Positions 1 through 57,413 of a stretch of DNA of 64,000 bases are shown here, piece by piece. The translations under genes and the position numbers were made by a program. The stretch is from positions 99,203 to 163,202 of the forward strand of contig JACPFQ010000004.1 in the NCBI GenBank assembly GCA_016182875.1. Reading direction: 5' to 3'. Position 1 is the stretch's first letter, and every line of letters starts with the position of its first letter. Source of the stretch: Candidatus Doudnabacteria bacterium. GTDB lineage: Bacteria > Patescibacteriota > Doudnabacteria > UBA920 > O2-02-FULL-48-8. The notes beneath the pieces were generated by a model that was not told where the DNA came from, searched no databases, and was given only the letters and a program-made list of their open reading frames with translations.

Positions 1-260
1 GGAAGATAAGGGGAAACCAGAGTGACTTTGGACTCTATTTCTTTCAAAGCTTCCAGGATCAGCAGAAGTTCAAAAAAGGCCGTATTCTGATTGGGATACA
101 GCCGATGAAAAAGCGTGACTTCCTTGCCGGCATAAGCTTCGAGTTTGGGAATGCGGATATGCGTATTGCCGTCAGGGAAATTTCCAATTTCAATATTTGG
201 AGCAAATAAATCCGAAAAATTTGGCGAAACAAGTTTAAGCATATAACTTATGTTGAGCAT
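1..260 (-). CDS. Partial CDS (N-terminal part) resembling ribose-phosphate pyrophosphokinase / phosphoribosyltransferase; the gene continues beyond the window start
   Basis: Hand translation of the minus strand gives MLNISYMLKLVSPNFSDLFAPNIEIGNFPDGNTHIRIPK...VTLVSPYLP. The FPDG(E/N) and following segment resemble the PRPP synthetase N-domain. The start codon is ambiguous (260 or 242). Confidence 0.4.
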   Translation of the reverse strand, partial: MLNISYMLKLVSPNFSDLFAPNIEIGNFPDGNTHIRIPKLEAYAGKEVTLFHRLYPNQNTAFFELLLILEALKEIESKVTLVSPYL

Positions 261-269
261 ATCTTATCA

Positions 270-301
270 TTAACTAGAAGGTATGGAAAATCTGCTATAA
301 T
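270..301 (+). promoter_or_regulatory. Candidate sigma70-type promoter with extended -10 (TGcTATAAT) driving the structured leader and tRNA-Cys/tRNA-Leu
   Basis: tgcTATAAT at ~294-301 with a TTAACT -35-like hexamer 20 nt upstream; the expected transcript start is ~308. Confidence 0.3.
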
Positions 302-340
302 TCCTGTATACTAGTTTAGTTTCTTATCTTTGTATCTAAG

Positions 341-460
341 CGAGGCACAGCCGCAAAAAACTAGCTTTCGCAGGCCCGCCTTAGCGGGTCGAGAACCTTC
401 GAGACTTGCATCCCGATGTAACGTCGGGATGACAGCCGGTAGTTTTTGCGGCTCGTGCCG
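341..460 (+). ncRNA. Structured RNA candidate of unknown class (long closing stem, two internal hairpins) in the leader of the tRNA operon
   Basis: GGCACAGCCGCAAAAAACTA (344-363) pairs with TAGTTTTTGCGGCTCGTGCC (441-460). Internal hairpins are CCCGC-CTTA-GCGGG and CATCCCGA-TGTAACG-TCGGGATG. I see no clear match to SRP, 6S or tmRNA motifs. Confidence 0.2.
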
Positions 461-468
461 AGCGATTT

Positions 469-544
469 GGCCACGTGGTGAAGTAGCTAACACTGCGGTC
501 TGCAAAACCGCCATACGCGGGTGCAACTCCCGCCGTGGCCTCCA
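469..544 (+). tRNA. tRNA-Cys (anticodon GCA), CCA encoded
   Basis: Acceptor GGCCACG/CGTGGCC, anticodon stem GCGGT/ACCGC with loop CTGCAAA (GCA), T-arm GCGGG-TGCAACT-CCCGC, discriminator T + CCA. Confidence 0.75.
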
Positions 545-548
545 ATAA

Positions 549-634
549 GCCCAGGTGGTGGAATGGTTTACACGCAGCACTTAAAATGCTGTGAGCGAAA
601 GCTCATGTGGGTTCGAGTCCCACCCTGGGCACCA
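549..634 (+). tRNA. tRNA-Leu (anticodon UAA), class II with long variable arm, CCA encoded
   Basis: Acceptor GCCCAGG/CCTGGGC, anticodon stem CAGCA/TGCTG with loop CTTAAAA (TAA), variable arm GAGC-GAAA-GCTC, T-arm GGGTTCGAGTCCCAC, discriminator A + CCA. Confidence 0.85.
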
Positions 635-664
635 AAATCTGACTTTCGGAAATTTTCCCAACAC

Positions 665-1729
665 ATGGAAAATGAATTGTATTCACTAGAGCAAGCCCAA
701 AGAGAGGCGGAGATACTTCAGAAGAAAATTAAATCTGGGGAAGCTTCGAGTTATGCTGAAGCAGAAAGACAGCTGGAATCTACAAGGGTTGATACTGAAC
801 TCGGAAAAGACAAGAATAGAAGAGAACTGGTCGCGGAGCGCATTGAATCTAAGCTGAAAAGATTGCGTGAGTTAATGAAAAGACCAAGTGGCCAAAGATT
901 CTTACATTTTACAATTACCTACGCAGACAAAACAGATGCTTTTTCTGAAAAGTTCAGTGACGACCTAGCTAACATTGTCCAGTATGGGATTTTAAGCCAG
1001 GAAGAATTAATCAGACGCAGTATTAGAGTTCGAGAAAGCGCATCTTTTCAAAGCTCTGATGTAGTATGTACATTTCGGGATAATCAAGATAGTTATAATC
1101 CAAACGTTCATTTTACTGAAGTAGTGGGCACTTTTGTTATAGACCCCGATGCAGTGGAAGATCGTCTGGCTGCGCGGGATACAGGAGGCGGGCTTGATGA
1201 GGTCAATATCTATGGAGTTCCGAAAGAAGCTATCCTTGGAGTTATTCTTCCTGACAGCGGGATTTTCCAGAAGGCATATAAAGATTTTACCGAACATCCT
1301 GAAAGGGTCGCAGAATTTAATAAGGTTATGGATACAATAAGGCAGTTTGATGAACTACAATATTTAGATCAACCCGAGGCATTAAATGAAAAAAATCAGC
1401 AGAATCCATTGCTTCGTAATAACGCATTAAAATTATTTATGATGGGAGAGCCTGCTGATTTCGATTTCAAAATTAGGCTCTTTTTACTGATGCAGGAATC
1501 TGATCCGAGCTATAGCTCAGTTAGAAATTTTTATGAGCGTACCCGTGATTATAATCCAGGGTGGGGGTTGGGATGGAATGATATTCACTATATAGCTCTT
1601 GCTCACAAGTTTGCGGAAAATCCAAATTTTACCATCCCTGTTTTTAAGGGCAGTTCAGTTCAAACATATTCGGGTTTTGAATGGGAAGAAGGTAAATTTG
1701 AAGATAAATTGGTAAGTTACAACACTTAA
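665..1729 (+). CDS. Hypothetical protein (~354 aa), AT-richer than neighbours, immediately downstream of the tRNA pair
   Basis: Long ORF with its first ATG (MENELYS) at 665 just after tRNA-Leu; the upstream part of track ORF 521..1729 overlaps the tRNAs and is not coding. I recognise no family. Confidence 0.55.
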   Translation: MENELYSLEQAQREAEILQKKIKSGEASSYAEAERQLESTRVDTELGKDKNRRELVAERIESKLKRLRELMKRPSGQRFLHFTITYADKTDAFSEKFSDDLANIVQYGILSQEELIRRSIRVRESASFQSSDVVCTFRDNQDSYNPNVHFTEVVGTFVIDPDAVEDRLAARDTGGGLDEVNIYGVPKEAILGVILPDSGIFQKAYKDFTEHPERVAEFNKVMDTIRQFDELQYLDQPEALNEKNQQNPLLRNNALKLFMMGEPADFDFKIRLFLLMQESDPSYSSVRNFYERTRDYNPGWGLGWNDIHYIALAHKFAENPNFTIPVFKGSSVQTYSGFEWEEGKFEDKLVSYNT

Positions 1730-10086: not shown

Positions 10087-10563
10087 ATGATTATTCTAGG
10101 AATTGACCCGGGCATTGGCCGCACCGGCTACGCCTTCCTGCAAAAAACAGGCGTAAAAATTACGCTGCTTGAAAGCGGCTGCATCACTACCAAGCCCGGC
10201 GGGCAGGAAGCCCACCGCCTGGCTGAAATAAAAAAAGACCTGGGGGCCTTAATCAGAAAACGGAAGCCTGATGCTCTGGCGGTTGAGTCTTTGTTTTTTG
10301 CTGCGAACACCAAAACAGCCATGAGCGTTGGGCAAGCCAAGGGAGTAATATTGCTTGCCGCGGCTGAGTCTAAACTGAAAATAGTGGAACTGACCCCCTT
10401 GCAGGTCAAAATGTCGGCCACCGGCTACGGCAAAGCTGACAAAACCCAGGTTCAGCGCATGGTGGCGAAACTTTTGAACCTAAAAAAAATTCCCAAGCCA
10501 GACGACGCCGCAGATGCGTGCGCCATAGCTTGGGCGGGGATAGGCCAGCGGACTACTGGCTGA
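10087..10563 (+). CDS. ruvC: Holliday junction resolvase RuvC
   Basis: MIILGIDPGIGRTGYAF...; RuvC fold and acidic catalytic residues. Confidence 0.9.
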   Translation: MIILGIDPGIGRTGYAFLQKTGVKITLLESGCITTKPGGQEAHRLAEIKKDLGALIRKRKPDALAVESLFFAANTKTAMSVGQAKGVILLAAAESKLKIVELTPLQVKMSATGYGKADKTQVQRMVAKLLNLKKIPKPDDAADACAIAWAGIGQRTTG

Positions 10564-10577
10564 AGTCGCGTAGTCCT

Positions 10578-10826
10578 TCAAGGTTCGCGGCGCGCATGAA
10601 CAGAAAAGTCCTGGGGCCTCTCCGCTACTTCGCGCACTGCCGCAGGAGAAGGCTCAATGCCGCCATGCGGCATCACCAGTCCAGTCCTGTCCCGTTCACT
10701 CGCTTCGTAATCGGCAAACGCCGAGTCGATTCGCCCTTTGAGGCTGAGCTTGTATGCGCCGACTAGATGGCCGGGCAGATCATCCACTGCCTGCAACACT
10801 CTCTGCTTGAGTTCCTCGTAGTTCAT
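10578..10826 (-). CDS. Hypothetical small protein (82 aa) in a GC-rich islet; second gene of a translationally coupled pair
   Basis: ATGA overlap with the upstream gene; SD GAGGAGGG 3 nt before the ATG; local G+C clearly above flanks. Confidence 0.4.
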   Translation of the reverse strand: MNYEELKQRVLQAVDDLPGHLVGAYKLSLKGRIDSAFADYEASERDRTGLVMPHGGIEPSPAAVREVAERPQDFSVHARREP

Positions 10827-11059
10827 ATACCCTCCTCACTTTTTCCTAATGAGCCGGCTGCGGGCGGAGCGGCTTCGGCGCCACACGCCTCGTCGATGAT
10901 CTGCCTGGCATCGTCGCGCTCGTTGAGCATGAACCTCATCCCGCGCAGCGTCAAACCCCCGTCCTTTCCGCGGGATCCCTTGACGAACTCCGCAATCACC
11001 TCTTCCGGGACCTTGCGCCGCTGCAGAGCCGCCGTGAACCGCCCAATGCTGGGATTCAT
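10823..11059 (-). CDS. Hypothetical small basic protein (78 aa from MNPSIG); first gene of the coupled pair
   Basis: SD AAGGAGGAA 4 nt upstream of ATG at 11059; the track ORF extends to 11134 without an RBS. Confidence 0.4.
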   Translation of the reverse strand: MNPSIGRFTAALQRRKVPEEVIAEFVKGSRGKDGGLTLRGMRFMLNERDDARQIIDEACGAEAAPPAAGSLGKSEEGI

Positions 11060-11144
11060 CGCTTCCTCCTTCGCCACTGTGCGTGCCGGCAAACGCGCCG
11101 GCAAACAAGCATATAAAGATACCATTAAGCACATAATAAAGCAA

Positions 11145-11162
11145 CCCTGACGAAAGTCAGGG
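11145..11162 (-). terminator. Hairpin (CCCTGAC-GAAA-GTCAGGG) downstream of tyrS on the minus strand
   Basis: Perfect 7-bp stem with a GNRA-type loop; on the minus strand it is followed by a T-rich tract. Confidence 0.4.
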
Positions 11163-11251
11163 GTCTGTGTTTGTAGCGTGCCGATTCATCGGCTCGAGCT
11201 GATAAATCAGCGCGCTACATGAGATGCTGAATCAAGTTCAGCGTTACGGAT

Positions 11252-16660: not shown

Positions 16661-17345
16661 GGGTTTCTTTCCTTAAAATATAATACTGCTGCGCTATTCC
16701 AAACAAGGTCGTAACTATCCAATAAAGCGTCAAGCCTGCGGGAAACTGGAGGCCTATAAAAAAAGTGAAAATAGGAAACATATAAAGAGTCTGCATGCTC
16801 ATGATTTTGCTCATCTGATCGGTGCCCGCCACCTTCGGCAGGCTCAGGCGGCTTTGGAAATACTGCAGCGCCGCGGCCAGAGCAGGCATCCAAACGTTCC
16901 TGTCCTTAAGGTTAATTAGGCCAAGAAACATCGGGTCAATATGCTCCGGCCGCGGCACAAAACTATAAATGCCCTGCAAATTGGCGCCATTGAGGCTCTG
17001 GATAAACACCTGATACAAAGCAATCAGTATCGGCAGCTGGATTAAAAGCGGCAGGCAAGAGCTTAACGGATTAACTTTATGGGTGCTGTATAACTCCATC
17101 ATAGCCTTGGCCTGCTGTTCTTTATTGTCCTTATACTTCTCCTTGATTTCATTCATCTTTGGCTGCAGGTCGGAAAGCGCTTTCTGGTGTCTAAGCGACT
17201 TGTGGAAGGAAGGCAGCAGGGCCAGCCGCACCAGAACCGTAACCAAAATAATTACGGCGCCGATGTCAGGGATGAAATTGTAAAAAAACACCAACAAATT
17301 AAGCAGCGGATAAACCAAAATCTGGTTGAAAAAATCGCTTATCAT
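16650..17345 (-). CDS. yidC: Membrane protein insertase YidC (short form)
   Basis: YidC/Oxa1 core TM helices (LPLLIQLPILIALYQVF); synteny rpmH-rnpA-yidD-yidC-jag. Confidence 0.85.
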   Translation of the reverse strand: MISDFFNQILVYPLLNLLVFFYNFIPDIGAVIILVTVLVRLALLPSFHKSLRHQKALSDLQPKMNEIKEKYKDNKEQQAKAMMELYSTHKVNPLSSCLPLLIQLPILIALYQVFIQSLNGANLQGIYSFVPRPEHIDPMFLGLINLKDRNVWMPALAAALQYFQSRLSLPKVAGTDQMSKIMSMQTLYMFPIFTFFIGLQFPAGLTLYWIVTTLFGIAQQYYILRKETHAA

Positions 17346-17602
17346 GGCAAATCAACTCCACCTAAGCTTCTGGGATTGCAGGCCATAAGCCTTTTTATTA
17401 TTTTGGGCAGACCGGTTACCCCTTCAGCCTGTAAAACCTTTTTTGCGTACATCGAACACGAAGGATAAAATTTGCAATAACCGTAAGGATAAAAAATTCT
17501 TAACAGTCCGTGGTCCGGCGAAATCGTCTTTTGGTAAATCAAAAGCAGCAAAACCAATGGTAAAGCAATTATGCGATTAGTGCTTGTTAAAATTTTTTCC
17601 AT
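17342..17602 (-). CDS. yidD: Membrane protein insertion efficiency factor YidD
   Basis: YPSCSMYAKKVLQAEG...RCNP motif typical of YidD. Confidence 0.85.
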   Translation of the reverse strand: MEKILTSTNRIIALPLVLLLLIYQKTISPDHGLLRIFYPYGYCKFYPSCSMYAKKVLQAEGVTGLPKIIKRLMACNPRSLGGVDLP

Positions 17603-17934
17603 AAATATGCTTGTTTAAAAAGATTCAACAACTCCTGCTCTAGATCCCTGTATCGTTTCCCGCCAGCTTCGTTCTTCACCGTAAGGAGGATGTCCGCTGG
17701 TTTAGTATTTGATAAATTGAGCTGGACAATCCGCTTAAGCCGCCGCTTAACCTGGTTGCGCTTGGTGACTTTGGGAAAAATTTTCTTTGAAACAATAAAA
17801 CCAAAACGCGGATTGTTTTGGTTGGGACGAGAGGTAAAACGCAATCTAAACGAATTTGAGTGAAAAGTCCTGCTGTGTCTGAATTGATTGAACTCCTGCT
17901 CGGTTTTAAGGGTCGTCAATTGGGACTTTCTCAT
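17587..17934 (-). CDS. rnpA: Ribonuclease P protein component
   Basis: Basic 115-aa protein with the RNR-like motif (KRNQVKRRLKRI); between rpmH and yidD. Confidence 0.85.
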   Translation of the reverse strand: MRKSQLTTLKTEQEFNQFRHSRTFHSNSFRLRFTSRPNQNNPRFGFIVSKKIFPKVTKRNQVKRRLKRIVQLNLSNTKPADILLTVKNEAGGKRYRDLEQELLNLFKQAYLWKKF

Positions 17935-18068
17935 TAAACTGTCAGTTTCCGCCTGCCCTTAGCGCGACGACGAGCCAAAACGTTGCGGCCGTTTCGGCTT
18001 TTCATCCTGCTGCGAAAGCCGTGAACTCTCTTTCTTCTTAATTTTTTAGGTCGATAGGTGGGCTGCAT
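17934..18068 (-). CDS. rpmH: 50S ribosomal protein L34 (not in the supplied ORF track; below its length cutoff)
   Basis: Hand translation gives [44 protein letters not shown] (44 aa); the stop TAA overlaps the rnpA ATG (TAATG). Confidence 0.85.
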
Positions 18069-18262
18069 AAGCTTTCTTACTATACCAACTTTGCCTTAGT
18101 TTGTCACGGGTATTAAACAGTAACAAAGTTTCAACCTCTATTCCACATCATATTAACAGTCATGCAAATTTTTGGCTAAAGTTAGCCAAAAATTTAGGAT
18201 TTACATGTTGATAACTTATCTGTTACAATACCGGAGTTAAAATCATTTTTGAAATCAAACTT
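18069..18262. other. Candidate oriC / dnaA promoter region (rpmH-dnaA intergenic)
   Basis: AT-rich; contains a near-DnaA-box TGTTGATAA (1 mismatch to TGTGGATAA) and TATTCCACA; conserved rpmH/dnaA divergent arrangement. Confidence 0.3.
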
Positions 18263-19597
18263 ATGACCAACCAACAGCTTTGGCAGGCAATTCTTGGCAA
18301 CTTGGAACTGACCCTCAGCAAGGCAAATTTTACGACCTGGTTTAAAAACACTTCGATCATCGAAAAAAGTGAGAATTCCATTGTAGTCGGAGTACCCAAT
18401 GGCTTCACCAAGGAGTGGCTGCAGAACAAATACCATCAGGAGATTCTGAAAGCCCTCAAAACAATTTCGCCGGAAATCAAGGAAATCAAATACCAAATAG
18501 TCAGCCCGACTTATACTCAACCGCAGATTGCGAAGGAAGTGGTCCGGCCGCAGCAAGTCAAAAGAGCTGATAATCAGAACTTGAACCCAAAATATACTTT
18601 TACCAGCTTCATTGTCGGGGCCAACAACCAATTGGCGCACGCGGCCAGCCTGGCGGTAAGCAAAAAACCGGGCCAGGTTTATAATCCGCTCTTCATCTAC
18701 GGCGGGGTGGGATTGGGAAAAACTCACCTCATGCAGGCCGTGGGCAGCGAAGTCCTCAAAAAATCCGCGAATGTCAAGGTTTTATATGTGACGTCCGAAA
18801 AATTTACCAATGAATTTGTCTCCGCAGTTTCTGCGGGAAAAACCGAGTCATTTAAATCTTTATACCGCAGCGTCGACGTTCTGCTGGTCGATGATATTCA
18901 ATTCTTGGCGGGAAGAGAAGGCACCCAGGAAGAATTTTTCCATACCTTCAATGCCCTGCATCAAAACAACAAGCAGGTCGTAATGACTTCCGACCGGCTG
19001 CCCAAAGAAATTCCTGCGATCGAAGAGCGCTTGGTTTCGCGCTTTGAATGGGGAATGATTGCCGACATTCAAGCGCCCGATTTGGAAACCCGCCTGGCGA
19101 TTCTTAAGACCAAAGCCCGGGAAAAAAATTACAACATCGAACCGGAGATTTTAACTTACATTGCGGAAACCATCCAAAGCAATATCAGGGAATTGGAAGG
19201 GGCCTTAAACCGGCTTATGGTCTACTGCCAGCTCAACAACACCCGCCCGACCATTGACCAGGTGAAGAATATCCTCGTCAACGTCATAACTCCCCCAAAA
19301 AGGCGTGGCGTCTCTGCCAAAAAAATCATTGAAGTCGTGGCTGACTTTTATAACGTTTCAATTGAGGACCTTCTCAAACAATCGAGAAAAAAAGAATACG
19401 TCAATCCGCGGCAAATCGCCATGTTCATCATCCGCCGGGAGCTAGAAACTTCCCTCCCATCGATCGGCGAGTTCTTTGGGGGCCGGGACCACACCACTGT
19501 AATCCATGCCATCGACAAAATCGATCGCCAAATCAAAGAACGCAACGGCTTAAAACAAGAGATAGATTTGATTAAGGATAGACTGTATATGCCGTGA
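18263..19597 (+). CDS. dnaA: Chromosomal replication initiator DnaA
   Basis: AAA+ Walker A (GGVGLGKTHL), DnaA signature, C-terminal DNA-binding domain. Confidence 0.95.
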   Translation: MTNQQLWQAILGNLELTLSKANFTTWFKNTSIIEKSENSIVVGVPNGFTKEWLQNKYHQEILKALKTISPEIKEIKYQIVSPTYTQPQIAKEVVRPQQVKRADNQNLNPKYTFTSFIVGANNQLAHAASLAVSKKPGQVYNPLFIYGGVGLGKTHLMQAVGSEVLKKSANVKVLYVTSEKFTNEFVSAVSAGKTESFKSLYRSVDVLLVDDIQFLAGREGTQEEFFHTFNALHQNNKQVVMTSDRLPKEIPAIEERLVSRFEWGMIADIQAPDLETRLAILKTKAREKNYNIEPEILTYIAETIQSNIRELEGALNRLMVYCQLNNTRPTIDQVKNILVNVITPPKRRGVSAKKIIEVVADFYNVSIEDLLKQSRKKEYVNPRQIAMFIIRRELETSLPSIGEFFGGRDHTTVIHAIDKIDRQIKERNGLKQEIDLIKDRLYMP

Positions 19598-19767
19598 GGG
19601 TAAACTGTTAATTAAAAATTACGGATTACGGGTTACGGATTTTTATACCGACGTTCCCCACAAGCTAAAAACAACAAGTTAAATAATCTAATTCGATAAT
19701 CCGCAATCCGTAATTAATAATTCCAACAAATACACAAACCCACAGTTTCTATTACCACTATTATTTT
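19598..19767. other. dnaA-dnaN intergenic region with inverted TTACGGAT-type repeats flanking an AT-rich core; alternative oriC candidate
   Basis: ttacggattacgggttacggatt ... aatccgcaatccgtaat (imperfect inverted repeats); TTCCCCACA and AACCCACAG as weak DnaA-box-like 9-mers. Confidence 0.3.
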
Positions 19768-20874
19768 TTGAAGACCATTATGAAAGTAGTATGCACCAAA
19801 GATAACTTAAGAAGAGGCCTGTTTGCCGTAAGCCGGGTGGTCGGGAGCGGAAACCCGTTGCAGGTTTTGAATAACATTTTGGTCAAAACCGACCAGGGGC
19901 GGGTCAAGCTATCTTCCACCAATCTTGAAATTGGAGTCAACACCTGGATTGGCGGAAAGATAGAAGAGGAGGGGGCGCTGACCGTGCCGGCCAGGCTGAT
20001 GAATGAATATATAAATAACCTGCCGGCTGACAAGGTTCTCATTACGGTTAAGGACACGGTTCTAAGCTTGGAGTCAGAGAATTATCACACGAATATCAAG
20101 GGGCTTTCGTCAGAAGATTTCCCCCTAATTCCACAGGTACTGGACGAGCCATACACCAAAGTTGACTCCGATGAGCTTAAATCAGCGCTTGCTGAAACAG
20201 TTTGGGCTGCGGCCAACAACGAGACCCAACCCGAGATTTCGGGGATATTTGTCGCTTTCGAGGATAACAAATTAAGGATTGCCGCCACTGACCGGTACCG
20301 CCTGGCAGAAAGAGTCGTGCCGCTTGCTGCTGCGGTCGCCACAAATAAAGAAGCTATAATTCCATCAAGGACAATCGGCGAGCTTTATAAAATACTTAGC
20401 CTGGGCAAGGGTGGGGTAGAAATTTACTTTTCGGAATCCCAGGTCTTGTTTAAGTTCGACGAGACCGAAATCATCTCACGCCTCATAGACGGCAACTATC
20501 CTGACTACCGCCAGATTATTCCGAAGACCTTTAAGACCGAAGCCGAGGTCGGGAAGTCAGAACTGCTTCACGCGCTCAAGGCAGCAAGCTTGTTTGCTCC
20601 TGACTCAAATAACGTCCAGGTGGAAGCGGGCAAGACCGAGCTGACAGTCGCCGCTTCGTCCGCCGCTGCCGGCGAAAACGTCACCAAGGTCGCAGCAGCA
20701 GTCAAGGGAGATAGCAACAGCGCAGTGTTCAACTTTCGATATCTCATCGATTGCCTCAACGCCTTGCCGGAAGAAAAAGTAATTCTTAAGATGATTAATG
20801 ACGCTTCGCCGGCCATGCTGCTGCCAGCCGGCCGCGATAATTATTTATACATCGTAATGCCAATTAAGCTGTAA
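19768..20874 (+). CDS. dnaN: DNA polymerase III beta sliding clamp
   Basis: MKVVCTKDNL... three-domain clamp architecture; 368 aa. Confidence 0.9.
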   Translation: MKTIMKVVCTKDNLRRGLFAVSRVVGSGNPLQVLNNILVKTDQGRVKLSSTNLEIGVNTWIGGKIEEEGALTVPARLMNEYINNLPADKVLITVKDTVLSLESENYHTNIKGLSSEDFPLIPQVLDEPYTKVDSDELKSALAETVWAAANNETQPEISGIFVAFEDNKLRIAATDRYRLAERVVPLAAAVATNKEAIIPSRTIGELYKILSLGKGGVEIYFSESQVLFKFDETEIISRLIDGNYPDYRQIIPKTFKTEAEVGKSELLHALKAASLFAPDSNNVQVEAGKTELTVAASSAAAGENVTKVAAAVKGDSNSAVFNFRYLIDCLNALPEEKVILKMINDASPAMLLPAGRDNYLYIVMPIKL

Positions 20875-22013
20875 TGAAGCTGGAAAGCATTGCTTTAGAA
20901 AATTTCCGCAACTACTCAAAAATCGAGGTCAATATAAATTCCGACCTCGTTTTGATTTTGGGGGCGAACGCCTCCGGCAAGACCAATTTTTTGGAAAGCA
21001 TTTATTTTTTGTCCCGTTTGAAGTCGTTCCGCAGCCCAGACCAGTTTCTTGTTAAAATCGGAGAGAACTATTTTAAGCTGGCGGCAAATGTCATTGCGAG
21101 GCCGGACTTGATCCGGCCGAAGCAATCTCATGGAGAGATCGCCGCGTCGTCCCGCCAAGGCGGGACTCCTCGCGATGACCAAGAAAAAGACCTAGAAGTT
21201 ATAGTCCAAGTCACCCCTATTTTAAAGCGCAGCTTTAAACTTAACGGCCAGAAAATCAAGCGCGGGCTTTGGCAAAGTTTTGCCGCGGTGCTGTTCATTC
21301 CCACTGACCTGAATTTGTTTTCTTTGGGTCCGTTATTGAGGCGAAGATACCTAGATGACACTTTATCCCAAGTCAGCAAAAATTATGCTTTTGATTTAGT
21401 TTCTTTGGACCATGTACTTGGTCAGCGCAAGGCCTTGCTGGAAAAAATAGCACTTCAGCAAGCCCAGCGTGAGGAGCTAAGCTTCTGGAACGAGCAGCTG
21501 ATTACTTTGACTTTAAGCATCGGCCAGGAGCGGAAATGTTTTTTGGATTTTTTAAACGAGCGGTTGAACTCGGTCTATTCGCAGTTGTCCGGTTTCAAAA
21601 ATAAATTCGCGGTTGAATACAAAACTGATGCTCAGGGCGACCTGCATAAACTGATCAAAGAGCATGAGGGGGCGGAGGTTAGGTCCGGCCAAAACCTCAT
21701 AGGACCGCATCGGGAAGACTTTGTCCTTAACAAAGACGGATTGTTGAATGTTTATAATTCATCCCGCGGCGAGCTCCGCTCCCAAATCTTGGCGATTAAG
21801 TTTTTACAAGCTGAGTACCTGAACAGCCACGACTTCAAGCCAATTATCTTTTTGGACGATGTTTTTTCCGAGCTCGACGAGGAGCGCCGGATTAAATTAC
21901 TGGAGAATCTTTCTGGCCACCAGATTTTTATCACGACCACCGAAGAGCACCACTTACCGGAAATAAAACAAGCGCAAAAGTTAAAAGTCGAGAATGGACA
22001 GTTCCTCCCCTGA
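20874..22013 (+). CDS. recF: DNA replication/repair protein RecF
   Basis: Walker A (LGANASGKTNFLESI) and a signature/Walker B region near the C-terminus. Confidence 0.9.
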   Translation: MKLESIALENFRNYSKIEVNINSDLVLILGANASGKTNFLESIYFLSRLKSFRSPDQFLVKIGENYFKLAANVIARPDLIRPKQSHGEIAASSRQGGTPRDDQEKDLEVIVQVTPILKRSFKLNGQKIKRGLWQSFAAVLFIPTDLNLFSLGPLLRRRYLDDTLSQVSKNYAFDLVSLDHVLGQRKALLEKIALQQAQREELSFWNEQLITLTLSIGQERKCFLDFLNERLNSVYSQLSGFKNKFAVEYKTDAQGDLHKLIKEHEGAEVRSGQNLIGPHREDFVLNKDGLLNVYNSSRGELRSQILAIKFLQAEYLNSHDFKPIIFLDDVFSELDEERRIKLLENLSGHQIFITTTEEHHLPEIKQAQKLKVENGQFLP

Positions 22014-22046
22014 TACCCCCTCTAACTCCCCCTTCCAGGGGGAGAA
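22013..22046 (+). terminator. recF terminator hairpin that is also a minimal copy of the palindromic-element terminal repeats (TAACTCCCCC-ttcca-GGGGGAGaaTTA)
   Basis: CCCCC-TTCCA-GGGGG stem-loop followed by aattatttttct; its ends match those of the elements inside uvrB and valS. Confidence 0.55.
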
Positions 22047-22141
22047 TTATTTTTCTAAAAATTAGACAAATCAAAAGAGCGAGGCCGACCCATACGGGGT
22101 CAAACCTCGCCCTCTCGTCCGGTCGAATGACCGGAACGTGT

Positions 22142-23884
22142 CTATCTGTCTTCCTCCTCCCTTTCGTTATCGAGCTCCATGTGAAGGCCTTGTGAGACCC
22201 TCAACATGAATTCGCGGCGCTCGTTCGGCTTGCCGCCGAAGAACTTAAACCTTCTCTCGACCTTCTTGGGTTCGTGGGCCACCACGTGATCCGCGGTCAT
22301 CATATTGATGACCTTCTGTTCCGCCTCAAGCCCGTCGACATGCTGAGCGAGCGCGGTTACCGCACTGCGGGCTTCACCCGTGACCCGCTCGACGGCAGCG
22401 ATGCGGTCCATCATGGACTGCCGCAGCTCGGCACCGTACTTGGTAACGACTTCCGTGGCCTGCGCCCGCGCCGCTGTAGTGACCCGCGCCTCGAGCCCGT
22501 CGAGCCCACTGTACTGGATCCTCAGGGCAGCGAGCTGCTGGCCCTGCGCCTGAACTTGCCGACGGAGCGCGGTGATGTCAGCGCTTGGCTGCGGCTGGGT
22601 GACCTGCTTCTGCACCGCCTCGATGCGCTGCTGCAGTCGGTAACCCATGGCGTTGGTCTGGTTATCCATGACTGTCACGTATTTGTCGGAGACGATTGTT
22701 CGGCCGTCCTGGCAGGTGACACCGACCTTGGTAGCTACCTTCCGAGCGTTGACCGGGTCGATGTTGACCGTGCCCACCACTTGCGTGGGTGAAGCGCTCG
22801 TCACGGTCATGCTGACACCGCGCGTGATATTCACCGCCGTCGGGTTTCCGGTGCAGAGGTTGCTGCCCGACAGGGTCAGCATCTGCGGTACCGGGTGGTC
22901 CACGACGATGGTGTCCGGTGATATCGAGGTGATCTGTCCGGCGGCCTGTGCGAACGCTGCGTTCGCGTAGCCGCCAAACAGCAGCGCCAGGATGATCACG
23001 GGAACCACAGGAGCCGGAGCCGCGGGAACGGCGGGCTGAGCCGAGACTTCCGCCGAGTTCGGTCCCTCGCCAGACCCGTAGTACGCGCTCACGACGTAGA
23101 AGTATTGGGTGCCGTTCGTGAGCCCCGCTGCGTCGGTGTAGGTCGTCGCATTGGCCGTGCCGACGATTGTGTACGGGCCGCCGGCAGTCGTGGCGCGTTT
23201 GACCGTGTAGAACACAGCGCCTGTGATTGCCGCCCAGTTGAGGACGACCTGAGCGTTCCCTGGCGTTGCCGCAAGCCCTGTGGGAGCAGCAGGTCTGTGT
23301 GCTTCCTGAGCGCGCCGACGGACTTCGGCGTCGCGGTCCTCCGGTTGTGCAGGACCGCGCCGCCGTAAGAACCAGACGGCAATGATGAGCACGAGCAGTC
23401 CCACACCAGCCCAGACGAACGGGGCCAAGTTGATGGCCGCTGGCGGACAGCCGGTGGTCAGAACGGGCGTTCCCTGCGGGGTGTCCTTGCACTGGTCGAC
23501 GTTGTCCGCGACCTTGTCGCCGTCCGAGTCAGTGGCGGCCGGCGGCGGTTCCTGCGCCTTGTCTGCCGCCTGCTGCTGTTCTTGCGAACAGCCGTTGCGG
23601 AAGATGGGCACGCCTTGCGGGGTGTTGGCGCACTGGTCGTCGCTGTTCGGGATGCCGTCGCGGTCTGCATCCGCCACCGGGGTTGCCGGTTGCGGAGTTG
23701 GCGTTGGCGCGGGAGCCGCGGGCTGGCCCTGAGTGGCCGGTGGTGCCTGCGGCGCGGGCGCGGGTTGCGGAGTCGGCGGTTGCGCAGTCGCAGCCTCGGG
23801 CTCCTGTGGCACGACCGGAATCTGCGCGAACGCGCTGGCGCTGAGCGCCAGCATTGCGAGCACGAAAACGAACATTCTTATCAT
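22142..23884 (-). CDS. High-GC secreted/membrane surface protein. Order: signal peptide, Pro-rich linker, two TSP3-like Ca-binding repeats, TM helix, FN3-like domain, second signal-peptide-like segment, Cys-containing beta domain, long coiled coil
   Basis: I prefer ATG at 23884 (MIRMFVFVLAMLALSASAFAQ) with SD AGGAGGG 3 nt upstream over the track start at 24106. Repeats DADRDGIPNSDDQC and DSDGDKVADNVDQC. FN3-like segment NAQVVLNWAAITGAVFYTVKR...GTQYFYVVSAYY. Confidence 0.55.
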   Translation of the reverse strand: MIRMFVFVLAMLALSASAFAQIPVVPQEPEAATAQPPTPQPAPAPQAPPATQGQPAAPAPTPTPQPATPVADADRDGIPNSDDQCANTPQGVPIFRNGCSQEQQQAADKAQEPPPAATDSDGDKVADNVDQCKDTPQGTPVLTTGCPPAAINLAPFVWAGVGLLVLIIAVWFLRRRGPAQPEDRDAEVRRRAQEAHRPAAPTGLAATPGNAQVVLNWAAITGAVFYTVKRATTAGGPYTIVGTANATTYTDAAGLTNGTQYFYVVSAYYGSGEGPNSAEVSAQPAVPAAPAPVVPVIILALLFGGYANAAFAQAAGQITSISPDTIVVDHPVPQMLTLSGSNLCTGNPTAVNITRGVSMTVTSASPTQVVGTVNIDPVNARKVATKVGVTCQDGRTIVSDKYVTVMDNQTNAMGYRLQQRIEAVQKQVTQPQPSADITALRRQVQAQGQQLAALRIQYSGLDGLEARVTTAARAQATEVVTKYGAELRQSMMDRIAAVERVTGEARSAVTALAQHVDGLEAEQKVINMMTADHVVAHEPKKVERRFKFFGGKPNERREFMLRVSQGLHMELDNEREEEDR

Positions 23885-24133
23885 CACACCCTCCTGTGAG
23901 ATGTGAAAGTTGGCCTCGCGGCCAGTTGAAACGAAACGCTCTGACGGCGTTTGGCCGCGAGCCAGTGCGTGAACTCTAGTAGCACTGCTTTTATGTCTGA
24001 AATTTATCCTGATGTAAATCAGGATCAGGCACAAAAGTAATCCTACTAAAATGGGGAGGAGCGAGGCAGTCTTGGTAGACCAGCCTCGCCCCACTCCTTC
24101 TTGCATCTCAGCGCTTGCGCGCTGAGTTTCCTC

Positions 24134-25960
24134 CTATCTGTTGTCTTCCTCCGGTCCGCCGTTGGGTGGCGCACCGTTCCGGGTCTCGCACGGGGTGGCC
24201 AGACCGAGCGCCTCGGCGACTGCTTGCGACGCCGTCTTGCGCTGGTTGGGCTGTCCGCGTCTGAGGAACCTGCCGCCAACGCGGTCAGGCTCGTCGTACA
24301 CGACATGCTGCATCGCAATGCAGGTGCCGGTCTCGACGTTGCCCATCCTGCCTTGCAGGTTGTTGACGTACCCGGCCTGGGTTGTCAGGGTCTTCGCGAG
24401 CTCCCCGGCGTAGCTAAGCGTCTGGTCAGCAACGCTGCGCGTCGCCTTGCCTGCCTCTTCGGCTGCGGCAATGCGCGACACCATGCGCTCCTCGAGGGTC
24501 TGGAGGTCGCTGAGGACATCCGCACGCCGCGCGAAGGGAGCCCATGATGCCTGGAGAAGCTCGCCAGCTTTCGCGTGCGTCGGCTGGGCGGAGTAGTCCA
24601 GGTAGCGCTTGTTCCCCTCTTCCCGCCCGTAGACCTGCTGGAACTTCTCCTGCAGGTAGTGTGAGAAACGCGGGTCGCGTCCGAACCGCTCGGCCGTGAT
24701 GTCGAGCACGGTCGCCGATTCCTGGCTGATGATGCGGACGACCGAGTTGCCCGACGCGATGTCGCCTGCGTCGGTGTTCACCACGAACGCCGTGGTCCCC
24801 GGCATGGCAGTCGCGTCTGCCTGGAGCTTGCTGATGATGGTGTTGCCCTTCATCACAATCTCCGTAGTGGTGGCCACACCGGTGCCGGCGTTGATGCCCG
24901 TGACCTTGCCGAGCTTGGCGTTGCGCGGGCAGGCCATGGTGATGGTCACGTCCGCGGCGTTGCCGCCCTGCACCAGGTATCCGTTCTGCACACTGACAGA
25001 ACGGACGGTGCACGTCGGAACTGCAGGGGCCGCGGGAGCGGCGGGCTGACCCTGAGCAGGCACCTGTGCGGCTGCCGGCTGCGGCGCTGCCGGCGGGGCC
25101 GGGGCAGCCGCACCGGGAGCGGCCGGCGCCGTGGTGACGGGTGGGGTCGGCTGCTGGGCGAGGGCGCTGTTGGCGCCGAGCCCGAGCAGGATGGCGATGA
25201 CGATGCTTCTCATGACAGTTCCTCCGAGTTTCCGGTTGATGTTGATGCCGAACCCGATGACGAGTCCGACGAGAATCACGAACCCGACGGCCCCGCCGAT
25301 GACGATGTACCGCAGCTTCTGATCGGTCCGCCGCGTGTCCTGGCGGGCGAGTAGCGCGTTGTTGGACGCCTTGATCGAGTACTGCCGGTCCATCCACGAG
25401 TTGTCCGCCGACGAGGCGATTGCCTTCTCGATTCGTCCGATGAGCGAGGCTTCGACGTCGTTCAGGCGGTGCTCGACGTCAGTAGGCGACGCGTTGTACG
25501 GCGCGACCTTGGCGATGTAGGTTCGGGTCGCTTCGAGAGGCGGTTGCGACGAGTCGGTGACCTTGACCGTGACCGTGTAGTCATCGCCTGGGATTTCTTC
25601 GCCACGCGATGAATACAGGTAGGCCTGACTCTTGCTCGGCAACCAGACATCGAGAATGTCTCCGTTCTTGATCTCGTCGACGATCTCCCACTTGTAGGGC
25701 TCGGTCCCGCCGCGCGCCGCCAGGTTGAACTCCTTGTAGCGGCCGGATTCGAACGCGATGGTCGTGGGTTCGACGATTGTCAACGAACCGGTTGCTGTCG
25801 CGGGCGGCTGCTGGGTCGAACCCGTCGCGGGCGGCGCCTGCTGAGTCGAAGTACCGGGCTGGCGAATCGTCGCGGTCTGCGCGCCGAGCGGCACCAGGTT
25901 CAAGAGGAACCCGAGCAGCAAAATCGCTGCGCAGATGAGGTACTGAGTCAACTTCTTCAT
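24134..25960 (-). CDS. High-GC surface protein, paralogous architecture to 22142..23884. Order: signal peptide, Thr/Pro-rich linker, Ig-like domain, TM helix, second signal peptide (with internal RBS + ATG at 25213), Pro-rich linker, Cys-containing beta domain, coiled coil
   Basis: SD AAGGGAGAG before ATG at 25960. GGTEPYKWEIV...DDYTVTVKVTD resembles bacterial putative-Ig domains. Internal GGAGGA-6nt-ATG (M250, MRSIVIAILLGLGANSALAQQ) is in frame. Confidence 0.55.
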   Translation of the reverse strand: MKKLTQYLICAAILLLGFLLNLVPLGAQTATIRQPGTSTQQAPPATGSTQQPPATATGSLTIVEPTTIAFESGRYKEFNLAARGGTEPYKWEIVDEIKNGDILDVWLPSKSQAYLYSSRGEEIPGDDYTVTVKVTDSSQPPLEATRTYIAKVAPYNASPTDVEHRLNDVEASLIGRIEKAIASSADNSWMDRQYSIKASNNALLARQDTRRTDQKLRYIVIGGAVGFVILVGLVIGFGININRKLGGTVMRSIVIAILLGLGANSALAQQPTPPVTTAPAAPGAAAPAPPAAPQPAAAQVPAQGQPAAPAAPAVPTCTVRSVSVQNGYLVQGGNAADVTITMACPRNAKLGKVTGINAGTGVATTTEIVMKGNTIISKLQADATAMPGTTAFVVNTDAGDIASGNSVVRIISQESATVLDITAERFGRDPRFSHYLQEKFQQVYGREEGNKRYLDYSAQPTHAKAGELLQASWAPFARRADVLSDLQTLEERMVSRIAAAEEAGKATRSVADQTLSYAGELAKTLTTQAGYVNNLQGRMGNVETGTCIAMQHVVYDEPDRVGGRFLRRGQPNQRKTASQAVAEALGLATPCETRNGAPPNGGPEEDNR

Positions 25961-25989
25961 GACTTGCTCTCCCTTTTGCTAACGAGCGG

Positions 25990-26226
25990 TTATGGTTCAA
26001 CGACAGTCACGTTGACTGCCATCAGTACTGCGTCGAGGTCGAACGTGGCCTGCTTGCCGCGGATTCGTCCGCGCGGCACGTGGTCGTCCCGAATCTCGAA
26101 CTTGTCTCCGACGTGGTCGGGGCCCGTGAGGACTCTCACCTTCCAGACCATCCTGCTAGGGTTGGTTGGGGAAGGATTGAAGCCCACGACATAGCCGGTA
26201 TACGCCGGTGACCCTCTGATCGTCAA
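25990..26226 (-). CDS. Small hypothetical protein (78 aa, TTG start) leading the high-GC minus-strand operon
   Basis: SD-like AGAGAGG upstream of TTG; same high G+C; 30 nt upstream of the next gene. Confidence 0.35.
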   Translation of the reverse strand: MTIRGSPAYTGYVVGFNPSPTNPSRMVWKVRVLTGPDHVGDKFEIRDDHVPRGRIRGKQATFDLDAVLMAVNVTVVEP

Positions 26227-42406: not shown

Positions 42407-44539
42407 TCACTTAAACTTATGCCTCTTCATTCTTGTCTTCTCTCGAATTGCCGAAATTTGGTCGCGCAAGGCTGCGGCTTTTTCGAAATCCAAATTCCTG
42501 GCCGCCAAATCCATCTGATCGCGCAGTTCTTCCACCAGGTATGCGATTTCTTGCCTGCTCATTTTCGTTAAATCAATCCCTGATTCCTGATTCTTGATTC
42601 CTGATTCTATCTTCATGCCTGCCAGCCGAGATTCCTTAACAGCTTTCTGGATGCTCGCCGGAATGATGCCGTGCTTCTTGTTATATTGTTCCTGGATTTT
42701 GCGGCGGCGGGCGACCTCATCCATGGCCCGCTTCATCGAGCCGGTAACCTGGTCTGCGTACATGATGACGCGGCCATCGATGTGCCGGGCCGCGCGGCCC
42801 ATGGTTTGGATGAGCGAAGTGTCCGAGCGCAGGAATCCTTCCTTATCCGCGTCCAAAATCGCGACCAATGACACTTCCGGCAAGTCCAATCCTTCCCGCA
42901 GTAAATTTATCCCCACGACCACGTCATAAACTCCCAAGCGTAAGTCTCTCAAAATTTCCAGTCTCTGCAGGGTTTCAATGTCAGCATGGAGGTAATGAAC
43001 CTTGACCCCGTATTCAGCCAAATAATTGGAAAGTTCTTCAGCCATGTTTTTGGTCAGAGTCGTAACCAAAACCCGCTGGCTATTTTTTACCCGATTTTGG
43101 ATTTCCTCCATAAGGTCGTCTATTTGATTTTTGGTCGGCCGAATTTCGATTTCCGGATCCAAGAGGCCGGTGGGCCGGATTAACTGCTCGGCGACCTGCT
43201 TGGAAGCTTTTATCTCGCGCTCTTTGGCGGGCGTGGCAGAGACAAAAATCGTTTGATCGGTTTTTTTTTCGAATTCTTCGAATTTCAGCGGCCGGTTGTC
43301 TAGGGCGCTCGGCAATCTGAAGCCGTAGTCGACCAGAGTTTGTTTGCGGGCTGAATCGCCTTCATACATGCCGTTTATTTGCGGCAGGGTGATGTGGGAT
43401 TCGTCGATGAACAGCAAGAAGTCATCCGGAAAATAATCGAGCAGGGTCGAGGGCGGCTCTCCGGGCTTGCGGAAGTCCAAGTGGCGGGAATAATTTTCGA
43501 TGCCGTTAACAAACCCGGTTTCAATCATCATTTCGATGTCAAAGTTGGTGCGCTGTTCGATTCTTTGGGCTTCTAGGAGTTTGTCTTGACTTTTGAAAAA
43601 TTTAACCTGCTCAGCAAGCTCTGCCCGAATGTTTTCGATGGCGGCAAGCATTTTTTCCCTCGGGGTCACGAAATGCTTGGCTGGGAAGATGGTGAGTTGG
43701 CTTAGAGACGGATCGTTTTTAGACCGTAACTCCCCCGCTTTGCCTAATGCCTTTGCTCCCCCTCTTATCCTAAGAGGGGGTTTGTTTTCAGTCTTATCCC
43801 CCCTTGGAACAAGGGGGGATAAAGGGGGGTTAGAAGCAGAGGCTAAATCCTCCCCGGTCAGCGGATCATGTAAACTAATTTTCTCAATCTCGTCCCCATA
43901 AAAATTAATGCGATAGACTTTGTCTTCAGATGCAGGGATTATTTCTACCACGTCTCCACGTACCCTGTAAGTTCCTCTTCGAAGTTCGACGTCATTGCGC
44001 ATGAACTGCAGGTCAGTCAGCCGGCGCAAAAACTTGTCGCGCTTGATTTTGGCCCCGACTTTGATGGGGACGGAAAGCTCCAGGTAGTCGCCTGGGTTGC
44101 CCAGGCCGTAGATGCAGGAGACCGACGCGACAATCAAGACGTCTTGGCGACTAAGCAAACTTTGCGTGGCGGCGTTGCGAAGTTTGTCGATTTCTTCGTT
44201 GATTTCCGTTTCTTTCTCGATATAGGTGTCGCTTCGCGGAATGTACGCTTCCGGCTGGTAGTAATCGTAGTAGGAAACGAAATAATGCACGGCGTTGTCC
44301 GGGAAAAAATCCTGGAATTCCGAAGCCAGCTGGGCGGCCAGAGTTTTGTTATGCGAGATTACGAGGGTCGGTTTTTGGACAAGTGCTACGATGTTGGCCA
44401 TGGTGAAAGTCTTGCCGCTGCCCGTGACCCCGAGCAAAGTTTGGTAGCGGTAATTTTTTTTGAGGCCCGCAGCTAGCTTTTCGATCGCCTGCGGCTGGTC
44501 GCCCGAAGGTTTGAATGGTGACTGAAGCTGGAATTTCAT
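42407..44539 (-). CDS. uvrB: Excinuclease ABC subunit B, carrying an in-frame ~40-aa insertion encoded by a palindromic element
   Basis: UvrB helicase motifs throughout; the inserted segment [46 protein letters not shown] sits between the conserved DPLTGE and [13 protein letters not shown]. Confidence 0.93.
43727..43832. mobile_element. MITE-like palindromic element inserted in frame inside uvrB
   Basis: Terminal repeats TAACTCCCCCGCTTTG ... GGGGGGTTA; internal perfect hairpins CCCCCTCTTA-tcc-TAAGAGGGGG and ATCCCCCCTTG-gaa-CAAGGGGGGAT. Confidence 0.55.
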
Positions 44540-44740
44540 CCAGGTACTAGAAATTTGACTTAATTGTTCGACCGCTTAAGGTCTTTCTTCTAGCCGGTCG
44601 AAAATTAATATCGCGATATGTTTTTGATTGAGCGTTCTTTGCCTGAAAAACATAATCGCGGTCAAAATTTCAGTACCTGGCATCGTAAATTTCATTGTAT
44701 CAAATTAGACTGCGCTATGCATAGCAGTTATAATAAGCTT

Positions 44741-45307: not shown

Positions 45308-45410
45308 TGTTAATTCCTCCCCTAGAATAGGGGAGGTTAGGAGGGGTAGAGTACGAGCTTGAACCGTACCTCCCCTAGCCCCTCCTATTCTAGGAGGGGA
45401 ATTAAAATAT
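45308..45410. repeat. ~100-bp palindromic element (terminal inverted repeats TTAATTCCTCCCCTAGAATAGG / CCTATTCTAGGAGGGGAATTAA) filling the ruvA-femAB intergenic region
   Basis: Near-perfect 22-bp terminal inverted repeats plus internal sub-palindromes (GTACG...CGTAC). Confidence 0.5.
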
Positions 45411-57261: not shown

Positions 57262-57267
57262 GTGCTC

Positions 57268-57396
57268 GGGCTAGGTCGCAAATCAGAGCCGACGGGTCCT
57301 GCCGCGATTTACCCCACCAGTGCTCACTGTCGTTGCGCGCTGTCGGGGTCCCCAAATCGCGTCACCCGTCGGCAGCCAGTCTTTGCGACTAGCCCT
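57268..57396. repeat. GC-rich nested-palindrome element (~130 bp) between rpoC and the next gene
   Basis: GGGCTAGGTCGCAAA ... TTTGCGACTAGCCC encloses GCCGACGGGT ... ACCCGTCGGC, which encloses GCGATTT ... AAATCGC; G+C well above the flanking genes. Confidence 0.5.
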
Positions 57397-57413
57397 CGCT
57401 GAGGAAAAATAAT

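What the first reader, a model, noticed from the sequence alone, without database searches (positions are those of the whole stretch)
341..634. Unclassified ~120-nt structured RNA co-transcribed with tRNA-Cys and tRNA-Leu
An extended -10 promoter (TGCTATAAT) is followed by a highly structured segment with a ~18-bp closing stem and two internal hairpins. tRNA-Cys(GCA) and tRNA-Leu(UAA) follow with 4-nt spacing. It is too short for RNase P RNA or tmRNA, and the bacterial SRP RNA consensus is not evident to me. It could be a processed leader, a novel small RNA, or a divergent SRP RNA of a reduced genome.
Basis: seen in the sequence. Interest (0 to 1): 0.5.

Follow-up and report, generated by a model that had tools for sequence, protein, structure and literature searches.

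The report
Orphan palindromic insert in tRNA leader
The 126-base folded segment in front of tRNA-Cys and tRNA-Leu is real, but it matches no known RNA family and is missing from the closest relatives, so it is most likely one of several palindromic DNA inserts in this Doudnabacteria genome, transcribed passively and cut off the tRNAs.

Summary
TGCTATAAT sits at 293-301. Bases 340-465 fold into a closing helix of 21 Watson-Crick pairs plus two internal hairpins (-64.9 kcal/mol, z -5.9). tRNA-Cys follows after 3-5 bases and tRNA-Leu(UAA) after 4 more.

The sRNA/SRP interpretation is not supported. No Rfam family matches, even at E<=10. The window is a Candidatus Doudnabacteria (CPR) contig. The closest relative (GyrA 91% identical) has the same promoter and early leader running straight into tRNA-Cys, without the element. 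A second relative (88%) has an unrelated, weakly folded ~75-nt leader. Two more distant Doudnabacteria place TATAAT 10-20 nt before the tRNA. Nothing similar turned up in about 1 Mb of CPR loci or in the metagenome, viral, phage or plasmid searches.

A model built from the element alone found one probable paralogue in the window (57262-57402, minus strand, after rpoC). It shares the helix base (tandem G·A, bulged C), shows four compensatory pair changes and has an unrelated interior. The window also holds other one-off palindromes, one of them in frame inside uvrB.

Best reading: a lineage-specific palindromic insertion (MITE/REPIN-like, membership unproven), co-transcribed and removed by RNase P. 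Interest is low to moderate.

The parts
281..330 (+). Promoter and early leader of the tRNA operon (GTATGGAAAATCTGCTATAATTCCTGTATACTAGTTTAGTTTCTTAT), including the extended -10 TGCTATAAT at 293-301
   Evidence: Sequence read. Homologous stretches lie upstream of tRNA-Cys in L127 (GTGTGGAAAATCTGTTATAATTGAAGTATACTAACTTAGTTTCTAT) and L131.
340..465 (+). Element E1: a 126-nt imperfect palindrome / three-way-junction fold inserted in the leader
   Evidence: MFE -64.9 kcal/mol, z -5.9. No Rfam match. Absent at the orthologous site in L127, L131, L012 and L070.
340..365 (+). P1 5' arm (GCGAGGCACAGCCGCAAAAAACTAGC); its base, GCGAGG, is shared with E2
373..390 (+). P2 hairpin, 7 bp, loop CUUA, one G-U pair
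406..435 (+). P3 hairpin, 10+3 bp, loop UAA, bulged A432, two G-U pairs
438..463 (+). P1 3' arm (GGTAGTTTTTGCGGCTCGTGCCGAGC) with bulged C454; its base, CCGAGC, is shared with E2
469..544 (+). tRNA-Cys(GCA), T-loop UGCAACU, CCA encoded
549..634 (+). tRNA-Leu(UAA), CCA encoded
57262..57402 (-). Element E2, the probable paralogue of E1. It has the same helix base (AGCGAGG...CCGAGC, tandem G.A, bulged C on the 3' arm), four compensatory pair changes and an unrelated interior (one long hairpin). It exactly fills the gap between rpoC and the Gmad2-domain gene.
   Evidence: The model built from E1 alone scores it 19.7 bits, the best non-self hit in 1.04 Mb. Fold -78 kcal/mol, z -5.3. Flanking genes identified.

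Best explanation
E1 is a recent, lineage-specific insertion of an imperfect palindromic DNA element into the transcribed leader of the tRNA-Cys/tRNA-Leu(UAA) operon. It lies 38 nt downstream of the operon's conserved extended -10 promoter and ends 3-5 nt before tRNA-Cys. It is therefore transcribed as part of the tRNA precursor and folds into a very stable three-way junction. It is detached when RNase P cuts at the 5' end of tRNA-Cys, and its ~21-bp closing helix is also long enough to be an RNase III substrate. It has no conserved function of its own. It belongs to a set of one-off palindromic inserts in this Doudnabacteria genome. One of them, E2 after rpoC, shares E1's helix base and probably the same origin or mobilising machinery. 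Shown: the structure, the lack of any Rfam match, absence in relatives, the conserved promoter, and the similarity to E2. Inferred: co-transcription, RNase P and RNase III processing, mobility and lack of function.
For: The structure is real and extreme. No Rfam family matches at the gathering threshold or at E<=10. In L127 (GyrA 91%) the homologous promoter and leader run directly into tRNA-Cys with no element. L131 (88%) has the same promoter followed by an unrelated ~75-nt leader with z -1.9, and its similarity to E1 is not significant. L012, which has an identical tRNA-Cys, and L070 place TATAAT 10-20 nt before the tRNA. blastn, nhmmer and the covariance model find nothing similar in about 1 Mb of CPR loci. 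Metagenome, viral, phage and plasmid searches also find nothing. The fold is nearly as good on the opposite strand (-61.0, z -4.9), as expected for a DNA palindrome. E2 shares the termini and shows compensatory changes. The window holds further one-off palindromes, including E3, which coincides with a ~44-47-aa in-frame insertion in UvrB, plus E4 and I1. The surrounding locus is rearranged relative to relatives: the tRNA cassette is inverted, there is an extra 354-aa orphan gene, and the tRNA-Cys is of a different type.
Against: Only one probable relative (E2) was seen, and the arm similarity is not outstanding by sequence alignment alone. No target-site duplication flanks either copy, and the AGCGA repeat around E1 is part of the conserved termini. 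No transposase was identified. The rest of the genome could not be scanned, so copy number is unknown. All three imperfect stem positions in P2 and P3 are G-U on the tRNA strand, and the fold is 4 kcal/mol better on that strand, a weak hint of selection at the RNA level. Pairing is kept through four double changes between E1 and E2, which means something selects for the hairpin, in RNA or in single-stranded DNA.
Confidence: 0.6

Rival explanations
1. E1 and E2 are members of a small, lineage-restricted family of structured RNAs. Their conserved closing helix (GCGAGG/CCGAGC with tandem G.A, a bulged C and a covarying stem) would be a protein-binding platform, with a variable interior, in the manner of Y RNAs. 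E1 would be matured from the tRNA precursor by RNase P.
For: Conserved helix base, non-canonical tandem G.A and bulged C, and four compensatory pair changes with no broken pair in the first 18 positions. Both elements fold 4-6 kcal/mol better in the GCGAGG orientation. A terminator-like hairpin lies 15 nt after E2 on the minus strand.
Against: The element is absent from the closest relatives at the E1 site. The interiors of E1 and E2 are unrelated. In this orientation E2 is antisense to both flanking genes, and the scan found no promoter for it. The terminator-like match is within chance expectation (1.3 expected). There are only two members, and their similarity is weak by sequence alone. Inverted termini recognised as folded single-stranded DNA would covary in the same way.
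Confidence: 0.15
2. E1 is a cis-acting part of the tRNA operon. It could be a processing stem (an RNase III entry site that separates the leader), a 5' stabiliser, or an attenuator that tunes tRNA-Cys/tRNA-Leu output.
For: It lies inside the transcription unit, 3-5 nt from the RNase P site. The ~21-bp helix is of RNase III size. A hairpin-plus-T-run match (423-440 followed by AGTTTTTGCG) was flagged. Correia elements in Neisseria are cleaved or bound by RNase III and alter expression of neighbouring genes (PMC2649163, PMC10969869).
Against: Relatives run the same promoter and operon without the element. The T-run is sequestered in P1 and lies 11 nt from P3, so it is not a canonical terminator. 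No alternative fold competes within 3 kcal/mol of the MFE. Any such effect would be a side-effect of the insertion rather than a conserved mechanism.
Confidence: 0.15
3. E1 is a highly divergent version of a universal small RNA (SRP/4.5S, 6S, Y RNA or a tRNA-like RNA) of a reduced genome.
For: Its size (~125 nt) and long terminal helix. It occupies the place held by glyW in the E. coli glyW-cysT-leuZ operon (from memory, not tested here).
Against: No match in 340-468 to any of the 4227 Rfam models at E<=10 with permissive filters. There is no GGAA/AGCA SRP domain-IV motif and no T-loop. The topology is a three-way junction rather than an extended hairpin. The element is absent in relatives, which would need the same universal RNA.
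Confidence: 0.02

Closest known systems
Correia / NEMIS elements of Neisseria, and similar co-transcribed MITE-like repeats (ERIC, RUP, BOX)
   Same: About 100-150 bp, non-coding, with terminal inverted repeats of ~20-26 bp. They are inserted in intergenic or leader positions, co-transcribed with neighbouring genes, and fold into long RNA hairpins that RNase III can cleave (PMC2649163, PMC10969869).
   Different: Those families are present in tens to hundreds of near-identical copies and have target-site duplications (TA for Correia). Here only two related copies were seen, their interiors are unrelated, and there is no duplication.
REPINs (inverted REP doublets mobilised by RAYT transposases)
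   Same: Two copies of a conserved ~25-nt sequence in inverted orientation around a spacer, forming a long hairpin in single-stranded DNA or RNA, with hairpin pairing maintained (PMC3116915, PMC3337134). REPINs are not known to make target duplications.
   Different: REPINs occur in large populations with a conserved short spacer and a single RAYT gene nearby. Copy number and RAYT could not be tested here. The spacers are long (about 75-100 nt), structured and unrelated.
Rickettsia palindromic elements (RPEs)
   Same: Palindromic inserts of ~100-150 bp in a reduced genome that land in intergenic regions and in frame inside protein-coding genes (PMC10969869). The window's E3 is an in-frame palindrome inside uvrB.
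   Different: RPEs form recognisable multi-copy sequence families. The elements here are each unique within the sequence available.
Integron attC sites
   Same: Only the outer ends are conserved, the stems covary, extrahelical bases are kept, and the centre varies in length and sequence. This is the pattern expected when a folded single strand, rather than a sequence, is recognised.
   Different: The R''/R' consensus (RYYYAAC...GTTRRRY) is absent. There is no cassette array and no integrase nearby.

Membership tests
Bacterial SRP (4.5S) RNA and every other Rfam 15 family | Score against the family covariance model | tested here: not met
   cmscan at the gathering threshold and at E<=10 with permissive filters on 250-700 found only the two tRNAs and chance fragments inside them, and nothing in 340-468.
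Conserved small RNA gene (any) | Present at the orthologous locus or elsewhere in related genomes, with covariation | tested here: not met
   Absent in L127, L131, L012 and L070. There is no hit in about 1 Mb of CPR loci.
MITE | Terminal inverted repeats and no coding capacity | tested here: met
   The arms 340-365 and 438-463 are inverted repeats with 22 of 27 positions identical. There is no ORF other than a spurious one that runs into the tRNA.
MITE | Target-site duplication flanking the repeats | tested here: not met
   The flanks are TCTA|AGCGAGG...CCGAGCGA|TTT for E1 and CCTC|AGCGAGG...CCGAGC|ACTT for E2, with no shared direct repeat. The AGCGA repeat is internal to the conserved ends.
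MITE | Multiple similar copies in the genome | tested here: inconclusive
   One probable relative (E2) in 64 kb.
MITE / REPIN | A cognate transposase (DDE or RAYT) in the genome | not tested
   Only some of the window's ORFs were scanned, and none of those is a transposase.
REPIN | Inverted doublet of a conserved short repeat forming a hairpin, with pairing maintained | tested here: met
   E1 and E2 share 15 of 20 bases at the stem base, and four positions differ on both arms in a complementary way.
Integron attC | R'' RYYYAAC and R' GTTRRRY core sites | tested here: not met
   Read directly from the sequence. The candidate positions read AAAAAAC and GTTTTTG.
RNase III-processed hairpin (works like Correia RNA) | About 20 bp or more of near-continuous double-stranded RNA in the transcript | tested here: met
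   P1 has 21 Watson-Crick pairs with two single-base bulges. Whether it is actually cleaved cannot be tested with these tools.

The most novel reading that the evidence does not exclude
E1 and E2, and perhaps the similarly shaped one-off palindromes E3, E4 and I1, could represent a CPR-specific class of mobile hairpin elements that are recognised by their folded shape rather than by sequence. The signs are a conserved helix base with tandem G.A and a bulged C, covarying stems and free interiors. Such elements would be analogous to attC sites or REPINs, and able to land in tRNA leaders, in operon spacers and in frame inside essential genes such as uvrB.
Probability: 0.15. Interest if true: 0.6.

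Novelty: new variant of a known kind. Interest (0 to 1): 0.3.

Why it matters
For annotation, a very stable, promoter-driven, tRNA-linked fold in a CPR genome should not be called a new sRNA or a missing SRP RNA without checking relatives. Here the closest genome lacks it.

For CPR biology, the window shows that a small, streamlined Doudnabacteria genome carries several unrelated ~100-150-bp palindromic inserts. One sits in a tRNA operon leader and one in frame within uvrB. Small palindromic repeats have been little studied in this group. If the shared helix base of E1 and E2 marks a structure-recognised mobile element, that would be a new entry among bacterial miniature mobile DNAs.

Tried and rejected
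- **Synteny through the downstream 354-aa orphan protein.** It has only one homologue (71%), on a contig without the tRNAs.
- **Synteny through prs N-terminal homologues (L002-L004).** Neither the tRNAs nor the element lie upstream.
- **Genome scan anchored on the tRNA-Cys T-arm.** It returned 120 loci, mostly Saccharibacteria and other CPR. It was useful as a negative set but contained only three Doudnabacteria.
- **Metagenome scan anchored on the Cys-Leu junction.** No hits.
- **Metagenome scan with a pattern matching both arms.** It gave two records of the same coding sequence, which are chance matches.
- **Viral scans.** All four patterns gave nothing: central linker, arm pair, degenerate arm, and shared termini.
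- **Phage and plasmid blastn.** No match.
- **The AGCGA direct repeat around E1 as a target-site duplication.** Rejected, because E2 shows it is part of the conserved termini.
- **Homology between the L131 leader and E1 (shared GTCGGGAT hairpin arm).** Not significant: 94 of 500 shuffles scored as well.
- **A 31-nt match at the very end of contig L131.** It overlaps the ruvC stop codon, has E 0.1, and a 14-mer identity of that kind is expected by chance.
- **The third covariance-model hit (43737-43845, 19.5 bits).** It has the same topology but no shared termini. It is a different palindrome, and it shows that about 19 bits can come from structure alone in this genome.
- **Strand test by G-U counts.** Too few G-U pairs to decide.
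- **Logan contigs of the same strain.** They start inside tRNA-Leu and so do not cover E1.

Full report
**What is there.** The window comes from a Candidatus Doudnabacteria (CPR/Patescibacteria) metagenome-assembled contig. The protein downstream of the tRNAs is 100% identical to NCBI HYV13_02160 on a 327-kb contig, and GyrA agrees.

The local layout is as follows. prs runs leftwards from 242. TGCTATAAT is at 293-301. The structured segment spans 340-465. tRNA-Cys(GCA) is at 469-544 and tRNA-Leu(UAA) at 549-634. An orphan 354-aa ORF follows at 665-1729.

The segment folds into three helices:
- P1: 340-365 with 438-463, comprising 21 Watson-Crick pairs, a tandem G·A/A·G, and bulged A360 and C454.
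- P2: 373-390.
- P3: 406-435.

The MFE is -64.9 kcal/mol against -42.1 ± 3.8 for shuffles (z -5.9). Among 111 regions upstream of tRNA-Cys genes in other, mostly CPR, genomes it is the most stable and the only one closed by an end-to-end helix.

**It is not a known RNA.** Rfam 15 finds only the two tRNAs at the gathering threshold. A permissive scan of 250-700 at E<=10 puts nothing in 340-468. SRP, 6S, tmRNA, RNase P, riboswitch and ribozyme models are therefore all negative.

**It is not conserved.** A genome scan anchored on the tRNA-Cys T-arm gave 120 loci. None contains sequence similar to the element by blastn, nhmmer or covariance model. Doudnabacteria L012, whose tRNA-Cys is identical to the window's, and L070 both carry the Cys-Leu(UAA) pair with TATAAT only 10-20 nt upstream.

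GyrA homologues led to closer relatives:
- **L127 (GyrA 91%).** The stretch GTGTGGAAAATCTGTTATAATTGAAGTATACTAACTTAGTTTCTAT is clearly homologous to window 281-330. It is followed immediately by tRNA-Cys.
- **L131 (GyrA 88%).** The same promoter is followed by an unrelated ~75-nt leader with a weak fold (z -1.9). Its similarity to the element is not significant.

So the promoter is real and conserved, and bases ~332-468 are an insertion specific to this lineage. The locus is also rearranged in other ways. In L127 and L131 the tRNA cassette points towards prs, the 354-aa gene is absent, and tRNA-Cys has a canonical T-loop.

Metagenome, viral, phage and plasmid searches found nothing beyond two chance matches in a coding sequence.

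**A probable paralogue.** A covariance model built from the element alone gave 19.7 bits at 57262-57399 on the minus strand. That is its best non-self hit in 1.04 Mb. The next best hits were 19.5 bits at 43737-43845 in the same window (discussed below) and, in all other loci, 16.1 and 12.7 bits.

This element, E2, exactly fills the gap between the rpoC stop codon and the ribosome-binding site of the next gene. It folds into one long hairpin (-78 kcal/mol, z -5.3).

E1 and E2 share these features:
- the 5' end CU(A/C)AGCGAGG-nnn-AG-n-CGCAAA..ACU(A/G)GCU;
- the 3' end UUUGCG-n-C...CCGAGC;
- the tandem G·A;
- a bulged C on the 3' arm.

Four stem positions differ on both arms in a complementary way (C-G>G-C, A-U>C-G, C-G>U-A, C-G>U-A), and no pair is broken in the first 18 positions. 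The interiors are unrelated.

Two caveats apply. Gapped alignment of the arms alone is not outstanding against background. The 19.5-bit hit at 43737-43845 shares only the topology, which shows that structure alone can earn such a score in this genome. I therefore treat the E1-E2 relation as probable, not proven. By my own estimate, 15 of 20 identities placed exactly at the stem base has a chance probability of about 5e-4 after allowing for roughly 140 possible placements.

**A palindrome-rich genome.** A sliding MFE survey and inspection found further one-off palindromes:
- **E3 (43728-43832):** a closing stem plus two hairpins inside uvrB. It coincides with a ~44-47-aa in-frame insertion (residues 232-278) that all solved UvrB structures lack.
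- **E4 (44540-44686):** a 19-bp closing stem plus two hairpins, directly upstream of uvrB.
- **I1 (45310-45405):** a 96-nt palindrome that fills an intergenic gap.

None has a second copy in the window or in the loci held. E1 is thus one of several such inserts, not a special feature of the tRNA operon.

**How it most likely works.** The closing helix ends 5 nt before tRNA-Cys and leaves no room for a promoter. The tRNAs must therefore be transcribed through the element from the conserved promoter (inferred). RNase P cleavage at G469 would release a leader of roughly 160 nt containing the fold. P1 is long enough for RNase III, as shown for Correia elements in Neisseria (PMC2649163, PMC10969869).

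The fold is almost as good on the other strand (-61.0) and G-U pairs are few. The palindrome may therefore be a DNA-level feature. The compensatory changes between E1 and E2 show that pairing matters to something, either an RNA or a folded single DNA strand recognised by a mobilising enzyme, as for REPINs (PMC3116915) or attC sites.

Both copies have the GCGAGG strand on the leading-strand template. This assumes the origin lies near dnaA/dnaN at ~18-20 kb. With two copies this is not significant.

**Verdict.** The structure is real. The SRP reading is rejected, and the 'novel conserved sRNA' reading fails the conservation test. The 'processed leader' reading is right by position. The best explanation is a lineage-specific palindromic insertion that resembles MITEs or REPINs in behaviour, although membership of either family is unproven. 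There is no target duplication, and copy number and transposase are unknown.

Noticed in passing
window 43706-43846 (uvrB, minus strand 42407-44539): A palindromic element (closing stem plus two G5/C5-rich hairpins, 43728-43832) lies in frame inside uvrB. It coincides with a ~44-47-aa insertion (residues 232-278) that is absent from all solved UvrB structures. This resembles the in-frame Rickettsia palindromic elements.
   Followed up: partly
window 44540-44686: Another one-off ~150-nt element with a 19-bp closing stem and two internal hairpins, the same topology as the finding. It lies directly upstream of the uvrB start codon and has no sequence similarity to E1.
   Followed up: partly
window 45310-45405: A 96-nt imperfect palindrome (TTAATTCCTCCCCTAGAATAGGGGAGG...) that exactly fills the gap between a stop codon and the next start codon.
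   Followed up: partly
window 469-544; loci L005-L124: The tRNA-Cys has the T-loop UGCAACU (G at position 55). The two closest relatives (L127, L131) instead carry tRNA-Cys genes with canonical T-loops at the same locus.
   Followed up: no
window 243-1729 compared with L127 4627-4915 and L131 1-271: The promoter-tRNA-Cys-tRNA-Leu cassette is inverted relative to prs compared with both relatives. The 354-aa orphan gene (665-1729) is present only in the window. Its single homologue (71%) sits in an unrelated context (L001).
   Followed up: partly
window 22000-26000: A block of 64% G+C in a genome of about 47% G+C. It encodes two large minus-strand proteins (one with a weak fn3 match, one with no Pfam match) and may be foreign DNA.
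   Followed up: no
window 17000-22000: This is an origin-proximal region. dnaN (19768-20874) and recF (20874-22013) lie here, and the cumulative GC skew has its minimum at ~18-22 kb. Inverted TTACGGAT-type repeats lie at 19610-19722, just upstream of dnaN.
   Followed up: no
L131 3436-7224: The GyrA of this relative carries an intein with a LAGLIDADG endonuclease domain (1262 aa against 818 aa).
   Followed up: no
L080 5280-5421 and 6683-6914: In this Doudnabacteria genome tRNA-Cys and tRNA-Leu are separated by a ~140-nt spacer. A group I intron (72 bits) lies next to a tRNA gene 1.2 kb downstream.
   Followed up: no
window 3488/3489 compared with L128 2926-3009: Logan contigs of the same strain (identical GyrA) carry 84 extra bases in the 5' part of the S1 protein gene. 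This is a strain polymorphism or an assembly difference, and the extra segment is not palindromic.
   Followed up: partly
window 10563-11250: About 600 extra bases lie between ruvC and tyrS relative to L127. They include an unannotated 127-aa ORF and a cluster of three strong hairpins at 11145-11250.
   Followed up: no
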